Assembly: GCA_951406725.2 (NCBI GenBank)
Contig: OX597814.1
Span: 111,972,001-112,036,000, forward strand
From: Octopus vulgaris
Taxonomy: Eukaryota
Direction of reading: 5' to 3'
Length of the DNA: 64,000 nucleotides
In this document: in pieces, positions 36,645-37,693 of the stretch
How positions within the stretch are numbered: the stretch's first letter is position 1
Layout: every line of letters starts with the position of its first letter
Program-made: the position numbers and the translations under genes
The notes under the pieces: model-generated
What the model was told of the DNA's origin: nothing
The model's input: the letters and a program-made list of their open reading frames with translations, nothing else
The model's database searches: none

Positions 36645-36669
36645 TATATTTAAGAAGCACAGTAATATC

Positions 36670-37212
36670 GTAAGGGGGATCAGCCATCTGAATGTGGCTA
36701 GGGACAGGGCGGGGGAGTGGGGGTGTTACTGATGCATTTAGCCCCAGGCGATCATCGACGTCACCAGAAGGACCGACACCATCACGGTGTCCTTGCTAGC
36801 CTGTAAAGGGAGATCAGCCTCCCCGAAGATACGGATACTACATACGGACCGGTTTCGAGGTAATTGCCTCTTATCAACGTATGGTAAGCACCGTTCTTCG
36901 ATGAGGGACTCTCTCTACAGGCTGCATATATAAGGATTTTCACAGTAACCACAGTCACTGATGTAGAAAAACCGTTTTTCTTCGGGGAGGCTGATCTCCC
37001 TTTACTGGCTAGCAAGGACACCGTGATGGTGTCGGTCCTTCTGGTGACGTCGATGATCGCCTGGGGCTAAATGCATCAGTAACACCCCCACCACCCCGCC
37101 CTGTCCCTAGCCACATTCAGATGGCTGATCCCCCTTACGTTATAGAGCAGTTACTGTTTATATCTCGCTCAGAGATTTATTATTGTTTTCGAACGGTTTT
37201 TCTACATCAGTG
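36670..37212. mobile_element. Retrozyme-like family B, head-to-head insertion with 11-bp TSD
   Basis: TSD ACAGTAATATC (36659-36669 / 37213-37223). ~160-bp inverted arms 36669-36829 / 36979-37139. The right arm wraps round onto the start of the left arm, giving a unit of ~360 nt. Confidence 0.85.
36841..36883 (-). ncRNA. Type I hammerhead, U3-A8 core variant
   Basis: CAUACG-UUGAUAA-GAGG-CAAUUA-CCUC-GAAAC-CG-GUC-CGUAUG. Confidence 0.8.
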
Positions 37213-37693
37213 ACAGTAATATCATTTCTGGAGAAGTCAGTATTGTCTTTTATCCGTTCGGGGATCGTAAAATGATCGTAGTTGTAGCACTTTAGTGAGG
37301 AGTCGAACAGGAATCCAGTTTTCTTGCTTGTGTTGTGCTAAGCAGCGTGTAGGTTGGTGTGACAAATAGCATTCAGTCAAAGTTTAGATAACAAGTTTTT
37401 ATACAACTGCTTTTACAAAAAGTGCATGTGACAAACGTGGTAGTTTCATAGCTAGTAAAAATTAGTTGGTCGGTAGTTGGCTGGAGAATAAGCCAGATGG
37501 CATTAATGGTTAAAAGTTCATGTTATGTGATTCCTACTGGAACAGAAGAGAGTAAGGAATGAGTCTGCTACAGAATAAGGTAGCTGTAATGGAGCCAAGT
37601 ATTTGGTTATTTAATATCGACAGATCCCTTCCCCAGGTTTCCAAGCCTCATGCCTGTTCATAAAAGGAACAATTTCTGAAGGGACTACTTAGT

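What the first reader, a model, noticed from the sequence alone, without database searches (positions are those of the whole stretch)
36659..37223. Family B insertion with an 11-bp TSD supports retrotransposition of a wrapped ~360-nt unit
Seen: ACAGTAATATC flanks both sides. The left arm (HHR sense on minus) spans 36976 to 36670. The right arm spans 36979 to ~37214, continues past the left arm's 3' end and rejoins the left arm's 5' start (37192-37214 matches the reverse complement of ~36954-36976). The unit therefore closes on itself at ~360 nt. Polarity is head-to-head as in family A. It mimics a MITE with 160-bp TIRs, but the arms are offset. Inference: a staggered endonuclease cut plus priming from both ends on a circular or tandem RNA.
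Basis: partly seen in the sequence, partly recalled or inferred. Interest (0 to 1): 0.78.

Follow-up and report, generated by a model that had tools for sequence, protein, structure and literature searches.

The report
Penelope-style insertion of ribozyme repeat
This 543-base insert is two back-to-back pieces of a 360-base, gene-less repeat that carries a predicted self-cutting RNA motif and occurs in thousands of copies, likely pasted in from RNA by a Penelope-type jumping gene; the layout is already described, but the family shows its rules unusually clearly.

Summary
In detail: an 11-bp direct repeat flanks two head-to-head arms (36670-36976 minus, 36979-37212 plus) of a 360-nt unit that occurs as tandem arrays genome-wide (988 + 2,327 exact motif hits). 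The unit carries a type I hammerhead (U3-A8 core variant, covarying stems) and no long ORF: a non-LTR retrozyme. Across 80 position-sampled loci, inner junctions vary freely, but outer ends sit at two fixed sites about 43 nt apart. 45 of 51 two-arm copies use one site per arm, none uses the same site twice, and none is tail-to-tail. Readable TSDs are mostly 12 bp; one is confirmed by 11 empty paralogous targets; most targets are (TA)n. This is the published Penelope-like (PLE) signature: inverted pLTR, one-sided tail, TSD. Neither arm of this copy can be a fold-back of the other, so two priming events are inferred. Arrays of up to 12 near-identical units with a locus-wide variant favour, but do not prove, a circular template. 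This copy is atypical only in its right end, 25 nt past the usual site. Its empty site and its autonomous partner were not found. The scan noted similar PLE stubs in other genomes.

The parts
36659..36669 (+). Left copy of the apparent target-site duplication (11 bp apparent, 8-11 bp after junction microhomology)
36670..36976 (-). Left arm, 307 nt, unit u231-360 then u1-177; outer (RNA 3') end at family site P1
   Evidence: 4 mismatches to the natural unit of L013
36841..36883 (-). Predicted type I hammerhead ribozyme: 6-bp stem I, 4-bp stem II, short palindromic stem III, U3-A8 core variant, predicted cut between 36847 and 36846
36926..36933 (-). TATA-like box about 45 nt upstream of the hammerhead (possible internal promoter; inference only)
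   Evidence: sequence; an AT-rich TATAT block aligns in related families; not tested
36977..36978 (.). Head-to-head joint, 2 extra T
36979..37212 (+). Right arm, 234 nt, unit u18-251; runs through P1 (~37144) and P2 (~37187) and ends 25 nt past P2
   Evidence: 2 mismatches to the L013 unit
37139..37187 (+). 'Tail' segment between the two fixed family end sites P1 and P2; weakly predicted stem-loop; best conserved stretch shared with related families
   Evidence: local fold z = -0.49, not significant
37213..37223 (+). Right copy of the apparent target-site duplication

Best explanation
The insert is one copy of an abundant gene-less 360-base repeat with a predicted hammerhead ribozyme (a non-LTR retrozyme), likely written into the chromosome from RNA by the reverse transcriptase and GIY-YIG endonuclease of a Penelope-like element acting in trans. 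Steps. (1) Shown: tandem 360-nt unit, conserved hammerhead fold, no long ORF. (2) Inferred: tandem copies are transcribed, and the RNA is cut by the ribozyme and closed into a 360-nt circle, or stays as an uncut multimer. (3) Inferred: the PLE protein, probably as a dimer, nicks both target strands about 12 nt apart, usually in (TA)n, which gives the TSD. (4) Inferred from the end rule: each nicked strand primes its own cDNA, one at site P1 and the other at P2, 43 nt apart on either side of the tail segment. (5) Shown as pattern: each cDNA runs a variable distance, through the ribozyme site and for up to nine turns, and the two far ends are joined head to head with 0-10 nt of overlap or filler. 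In this copy the second strand began 25 nt past P2, where the primer end matches the template at 4 of 5 bases (suggestive only).
For: Two-arm copies are always head-to-head: strand order '-+' 46, '--+' 3, '-++' 2, '+-' 0 among 80 loci. Outer ends P1+P2 in 26 of 30 and 19 of 21 two-arm copies; P1+P1 or P2+P2 in 0 of 51. Inner ends scattered over the unit. TSD 12 bp in 8 of 11 hand-picked readable sites, 11, 13 and 15 in the others; the L016 target is present once in 11 of 11 paralogous empty sites. (TA)5 within 25 nt of 107 of 125 outer ends. In 21 of 41 clean P1+P2 copies the P1 arm reaches >20 nt further 5' than the P2 arm, which excludes fold-back. Hammerhead: 93% of cells paired, 11 of 14 pairs with two-sided changes in 9 copies of related families, slid controls 21-48%; the 3-8 core pair is kept as C-G, U-A or U-G in 117 of 118 cores counted. 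The genome holds open RT+GIY-YIG frames of 781 aa, and one such element (L079) has a 766-bp head-to-head inverted arm and a hammerhead-like motif in its end repeat. Same layout published for PLEs: PMC3846280, PMC8557442; two internal RT starts and both-strand cleavage/extension in vitro: PMC11167929.
Against: No autonomous PLE with a pLTR homologous to this unit was found: 46 PLE loci searched by BLAST and by profile, out of 6,136 first-look GIY-YIG candidates of which 150 were scored. The empty site of this very copy was not found. Many single-arm copies show no TSD. Ribozyme activity, transcription and circles are untested. Published PLE TSDs are 8-10 bp in the rotifer examples and tails 30-40 nt, here about 12 and 43. 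In vitro the anole PLE showed no strand difference in start site, so the one-site-per-strand rule has no biochemical support yet.
Confidence: 0.85

Rival explanations
1. Same PLE mechanism, but the template is a linear, uncut multimeric transcript of a tandem array rather than a monomer circle.
For: Linear multimers would also let arms cross the ribozyme site (71 of 120). Some loci are internally mixed: L273 and L275 have a divergent 5'-most unit, L278 differs 3.85% and L290 3.52% within, L028 arms differ 4.5-5.8%. In L114 units 1 and 3 share variants. In the anole PLE uncut RNA was the dominant substrate in vitro.
Against: L271 (9.1+3.1 units) has 2 private changes in 4,380 bp and L272 (6.3+2.4 units) 3 in 3,121 bp, with none shared among units, and the two loci differ by one site fixed in 12 of 12 versus 8 of 8 units. 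That pattern needs a one-monomer bottleneck or separate, fully homogenised source arrays of ten or more units. Mixed loci can come from template switching.
Confidence: 0.35
2. One priming event followed by fold-back (self-priming) synthesis made the inverted arm, as proposed for palindromic PLE junctions.
For: PMC3846280 reads palindromes at inverted junctions as self-priming. Several short copies have joints near a local hairpin at u81-99 (L192, L225); 8 of 41 clean copies have both arms stopping within 20 nt of each other. The two arms of a copy nearly always belong to the same sub-lineage (about 1% apart).
Against: In this copy each arm holds contiguous sequence absent from the other (left u252-17, right u178-251), and the same is true in 21 of 41 family copies. 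Fold-back would also tend to give identical outer ends, seen in 0 of 51.
Confidence: 0.05
3. It is a MITE (non-autonomous DNA transposon) with 160-bp terminal inverted repeats and a MULE-like 11-12-bp TSD.
For: Fixed outer ends, near-constant TSD length and inverted ends; about 12-bp duplication is near the MULE range (recalled).
Against: The two ends are different unit positions, not inverted copies of one terminus; interiors differ from locus to locus (arms 40-3,279 nt); 26 of 80 loci are single-armed; the conserved element is an RNA fold.
Confidence: 0.02
4. The arms are truncated ends (pLTR stubs) of an autonomous PLE, not a self-propagating retrozyme.
For: Layout is that of PLE stubs; earlier notes on other genomes reached this reading.
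Against: Upstream of each unit lies another unit, never an ORF: arrays up to 9 units; among the retrozyme-family loci scanned by tblastn only a few had PLE protein pieces nearby, none joined to an arm's 5' end; 26 single-arm 5' flanks share no common upstream sequence apart from one segmental duplicate and weak 74-79% repeat matches.
Confidence: 0.08

Closest known systems
Metazoan non-LTR retrozymes (Cervera and de la Pena 2020, PMC7229834; Li, Clavereau, Pollet 2026, bioRxiv 10.64898/2026.07.22.740005)
   Same: Tandem units of 150-450 bp (350-390 in mussel), one type I hammerhead per unit, no ORF, TSD larger than 4 bp, co-occurring PLEs proposed as mobiliser, circle proposed as RT template giving tandem cDNA.
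   Different: In the parts read, those papers describe direct tandems and link to PLEs by co-occurrence and pLTR phylogeny; they do not describe head-to-head arms, two fixed end sites or a 12-bp TSD. Here circles and cleavage are not shown, and no homologous pLTR of an autonomous PLE was found.
Complex insertions of endonuclease-positive Penelope-like elements (Arkhipova 2013, PMC3846280; Craig 2021, PMC8557442), Neptune/Naiad-like (TA)n targeting
   Same: Inverted 5'-truncated copy head to head, tail at one end only, TSD of about 10 bp, microsatellite targets, hammerhead and TATA-like box in the repeat.
   Different: No RT/EN ORF; repeat unit is 360 nt and multiplies up to 9 times per arm; tail about 43 nt against 30-40; TSD about 12 against 8-10 in the rotifer examples.
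Poseidon_Ac in vitro (Frangieh 2024, PMC11167929)
   Same: Two internal RT start sites that bound the tail, downstream of the hammerhead cut; both target strands cut and extended; AT-rich targets; predicted dimer.
   Different: That work saw no strand difference in start site and used linear RNA; here genomic copies pair one P1 with one P2 almost without exception, and starts lie about 180 and 225 nt after the cut.
L1 twin priming (recalled, no call)
   Same: Two target strands prime two cDNAs, giving a 5' inversion and a TSD.
   Different: L1 arms copy non-overlapping parts of one RNA and the second priming site is variable; here the arms overlap and both starts are fixed.

Membership tests
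Non-LTR retrozyme | Short tandem repeat unit of 150-450 bp | tested here: met
   359-360-nt period, up to 9 units per arm
Non-LTR retrozyme | Type I hammerhead in each unit | tested here: met
   motif and covariation; U3-A8 variant is described in PMC4209133; Rfam gave no match
Non-LTR retrozyme | No protein coding, no LTR/PBS/PPT | tested here: met
   no PLE protein match in the unit; only a 94-codon stop-to-stop frame that spans the inverted joint; PBS/PPT not searched
Non-LTR retrozyme | Self-cleavage and circular RNA in vivo | not testable with these tools
   needs transcription assay and RNase R northern or divergent RT-PCR
EN+ Penelope-like insertion | Inverted 5'-truncated copy, head to head | tested here: met
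   51 of 80 loci, no tail-to-tail
EN+ Penelope-like insertion | 30-40-nt tail on one end only | tested here: met
   about 43 nt, one-sided in 45 of 51 two-arm copies; this copy's tail is about 70 nt, an exception
EN+ Penelope-like insertion | Short TSD, AT-rich or (TA)n targets | tested here: met
   empty site of this copy not found
EN+ Penelope-like insertion | Sequence homology to the pLTR of an autonomous PLE | tested here: inconclusive
   none among 46 PLE loci; most of 6,136 candidates unexamined
Autonomous PLE | RT plus GIY-YIG ORF | tested here: not met
MITE / DNA transposon | Uniform length and interior with matching TIRs | tested here: not met

The most novel reading that the evidence does not exclude
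A Penelope RT-endonuclease dimer grips one stem-loop on a 360-nt ribozyme-made RNA circle, cuts the target with a fixed 12-nt stagger, and obligatorily starts one strand at each foot of the stem, then copies by rolling circle from both ends. This single rule would explain the tail, the inversion and the tandem repeats of Penelope elements, and would be direct insertion-signature evidence that animal retrozyme circles are mobilised by PLE proteins.
Probability: 0.4. Interest if true: 0.68.

Novelty: new member of a known kind. Interest (0 to 1): 0.4.

Why it matters
The single copy is ordinary. The family is a useful natural data set: thousands of short, young, gene-less copies in which the two open questions named in the papers read here can be counted, namely how PLE tandem/inverted structures form (PMC8557442) and what mobilises animal retrozymes (PMC7229834; 2026 preprint). 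It yields three sharp predictions for the existing in vitro PLE system: one start site per strand, a 12-nt stagger, and multi-unit cDNA from a monomer circle.

Tried and rejected
Rfam: no hammerhead match in 36500-37400 even at E 10. Empty site in the own genome: the right flank 37213-37290 is unique; the 11-mer in L179 has unrelated context. Empty allele in 8 public runs (assembled contigs): in X1, X2, X3, X4, X7 and X9 the flank contig runs 10-28 letters into the element, short of the tool's 31-letter bridging rule, and no joint skips the element; X10 and X12 do not cover the junction; contigs drop rare variants, so this is no proof of fixation. Expression: no RNA holder listed. Idea that cDNAs stall just 3' of P2 (u230-238): seen in BLAST-ranked loci (9 of 64 arm ends) but not in position-sampled ones (2 of 69, 0 of 51), so rejected as query bias. 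No pile-up of 5' ends at the ribozyme cut. Autonomous partner: not found via GIY-YIG loci, related family C (30 loci) or family D (29 loci plus the window's own). Tail hairpin: appears in the monomer fold (z -3.46 overall) but is not significant alone (z -0.49) and weak in family D. First repeat scan was swamped by microsatellites. Literature searches for the head-to-head retrozyme layout or PLE twin priming: 0 papers, 1 unrelated by listing, 2 plant papers, 2 reviews, 4 listed for octopus, none on this family by title; subscription papers, Repbase and Dfam were not searchable.

Full report
Setting. The window lies on contig C1 of a 2.8-Gb animal genome rich in microsatellites; a cephalopod is my guess from recall, not tested.

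Observation. ACAGTAATATC stands at 36659-36669 and 37213-37223 and nowhere else in the window; it is not part of the repeat unit, and a shared 11-mer at both ends arose in 66 of 200,000 random pairs. Using a natural 360-nt unit from the tandem locus L013, numbered from the predicted ribozyme cut, the left arm (36670-36976, minus) is u231-360,1-177 with 4 mismatches and the right arm (36979-37212, plus) is u18-251 with 2; the arms differ at 3 of 160 shared bases and have 2 extra T between them. Three of the 11 TSD bases also fit the unit, so the true duplication is 8-11 bp.

Ribozyme. Rfam finds nothing, but a motif scan gives a type I hammerhead at 36841-36883 minus with 6-bp stem I, 4-bp stem II, a short palindromic stem III and core TTGATAA. 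In 9 hand-chosen copies from related families, 93.4% of cells pair, 11 of 14 pairs show two-sided changes, and slid controls pair at 21-48% (the structure was drawn from the window copy and the sequences are related, which favours it). The 3-8 core pair is C-G, U-A or U-G in 117 of 118 cores counted. The U3-A8 variant is described in schistosome PLEs (PMC4209133, passages). Activity is untested.

Family. A search with the element gave 1,994 first-look candidates, 40 scored. Two exact 22-base motifs, one per subfamily, match 988 and 2,327 times. Because BLAST ranking favours copies shaped like the query, I counted on position-ordered lists from C1: all 48 loci in the first 100 listed matches (L210 and L211 are one event duplicated) and 32 of the 41 loci in the first 100 (the first 31 in order plus one picked for length). 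Of these 80, the script classed 51 as two-arm head-to-head, 26 as single-arm and 3 as other; none is tail-to-tail. Outer ends fall at P1 (u174-185) or P2 (u219-229). 45 of 51 two-arm copies have one P1 and one P2; five have one off-site end (this copy among them) and one has two; none repeats a site. Inner ends are scattered, 71 of 120 arms cross the ribozyme cut and 51 of 120 exceed one unit. The BLAST-ranked set gave the same picture (29 of 34 two-arm copies P1+P2). Related families C and D show similar arms.

Target. 107 of 125 outer ends have (TA)5 within 25 nt, which hides the TSD. At 11 sites that I picked because a repeat was readable it is 12 bp in 8 and 11, 13 and 15 in the others; other non-(TA)n sites, mainly single-arm copies, show none. 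L016 and L012 are independent insertions, in opposite orientation, into the same spot of another repeat, and 11 of 11 other copies of that repeat carry the target once (9 exact, 2 with one change). That shows true duplication for the family. For this copy no empty site was found, in the genome or in 8 public runs (six look filled, two do not cover; contigs only).

Mechanism. Variable inner ends, tandem turns and a conserved RNA fold point to an RNA template and exclude a MITE. Fold-back synthesis cannot make this copy, since each arm has contiguous sequence the other lacks; the same holds in 21 of 41 clean P1+P2 copies. So two primings are inferred, one from each nicked strand. The two arms of a copy are nearly always from the same sub-lineage (116 differences in 10,844 compared bases; L012 arms differ 1.2-1.6% against 11-21% to other loci; exception L028). 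For the template form, L271 has 12 units in two arms with 2 private changes and L272 has 8 with 3, and the two loci differ by one fixed site: this fits rolling-circle copying of one monomer. Against it, L273, L275, L278, L290 and L114 are mixed or patterned, which fits multimers, template switching or later exchange. I put the circle at about 60-65%. The off-site right end here has a 4-of-5 match between primer end and template, with no match at P2, but L102 and L230 start at P2 without such a match, so this is only suggestive.

Mobiliser. The genome has many GIY-YIG elements (6,136 candidates, 150 scored) with open RT+GIY-YIG frames of 781 aa (the CxxxxCxxC linker suggests the Neptune clade, by recall). 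One, L079, has a perfect 766-bp head-to-head arm and a hammerhead-like motif in its end repeat. No pLTR homologous to this unit was found among 46 PLE loci, so the partner is unnamed.

Literature seen. PMC3846280, passages: inverted pLTR, 31-bp one-sided tail, 8-10-bp TSDs, head-to-head most frequent, self-priming proposed. PMC8557442, passages: same layout, (TA)n bias, mechanism undefined. PMC11167929, parts 1-2 of 4: two internal RT starts bounding the tail, both strands cut and extended, predicted dimer. PMC7229834, passages and Discussion: non-LTR retrozymes, circles, tandem cDNA model, PLEs as candidate. bioRxiv 10.64898/2026.07.22.740005, parts 1-3 of 5: retrozymes as non-autonomous PLE derivatives, mechanism open. 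PMC9977147, passages: active non-autonomous PLE. I read no supplements; Fig. S2 of PMC11167929 and Fig. S9 of PMC7229834 may already show parts of the end rule or the model. Searches that found no paper on head-to-head retrozymes or PLE twin priming. Earlier AI notes on other genomes describe similar head-to-head PLE stubs; none matched this place or sequence; I did not check them.

Verdict. Real, correctly described, and a new member of a known kind: a non-LTR retrozyme with the Penelope insertion signature. What is less ordinary is family-level: the strict one-site-per-arm rule, the 12-bp TSD mode and the homogeneous multi-unit arms, which make the PLE mechanism and the circle model testable.

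Noticed in passing
window 41534-42968: Family A: 506-nt unit, head-to-head arms of 570 and 865 nt, 99.7-100% alike, outer ends offset by 90 nt, canonical CTGATGA hammerhead cores at 42238 and 42744, both ends in (TA)n.
   Followed up: partly
window 42984-43355: Single-arm copy of the sister subfamily (78% to this element) with the same U3-A8 hammerhead core, abutting family A in the same (TA)n tract.
   Followed up: partly
window 17958-18285 (minus) and 1-230: A more distant related family (D) with a canonical hammerhead (cut near 18150); 1-158 is a fold-back copy of a similar unit.
   Followed up: partly
L271 (G000:C1:31008600-31014400) and L272: Single insertions of 9.1+3.1 and 6.3+2.4 near-identical units head to head; best natural evidence for rolling-circle copying.
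   Followed up: yes
L012 and L016: Two independent insertions of different age and opposite orientation at the same spot of another abundant repeat (1,403 candidates): a target hot spot outside (TA)n.
   Followed up: yes
L005 and L010: Same inner joint (u11/u232, 6-nt microhomology) but P1 and P2 swapped between arms, suggesting independent events guided by microhomology.
   Followed up: no
B2 subfamily loci and L079: The youngest arrays carry a CCGATGA core (U4 to C), also seen as CCGAAGA in the autonomous PLE L079; activity of this variant unknown.
   Followed up: no
window 36101-36645: About 545-bp element with imperfect ~30-bp inverted ends and TA flanks, Tc1/mariner-like by eye, ending 13 bp left of the TSD (BLAST did not score the inverted ends).
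   Followed up: no
window 4385-4503: Degenerate 5S rRNA match, 74 bits, above the gathering score; probably a pseudogene or SINE head.
   Followed up: no
L073-L075, L084: Young PLE family with 781-aa RT+GIY-YIG frame preceded by a separate 333-479-codon open frame without Pfam match; no hammerhead found in its end repeat by my scan.
   Followed up: no
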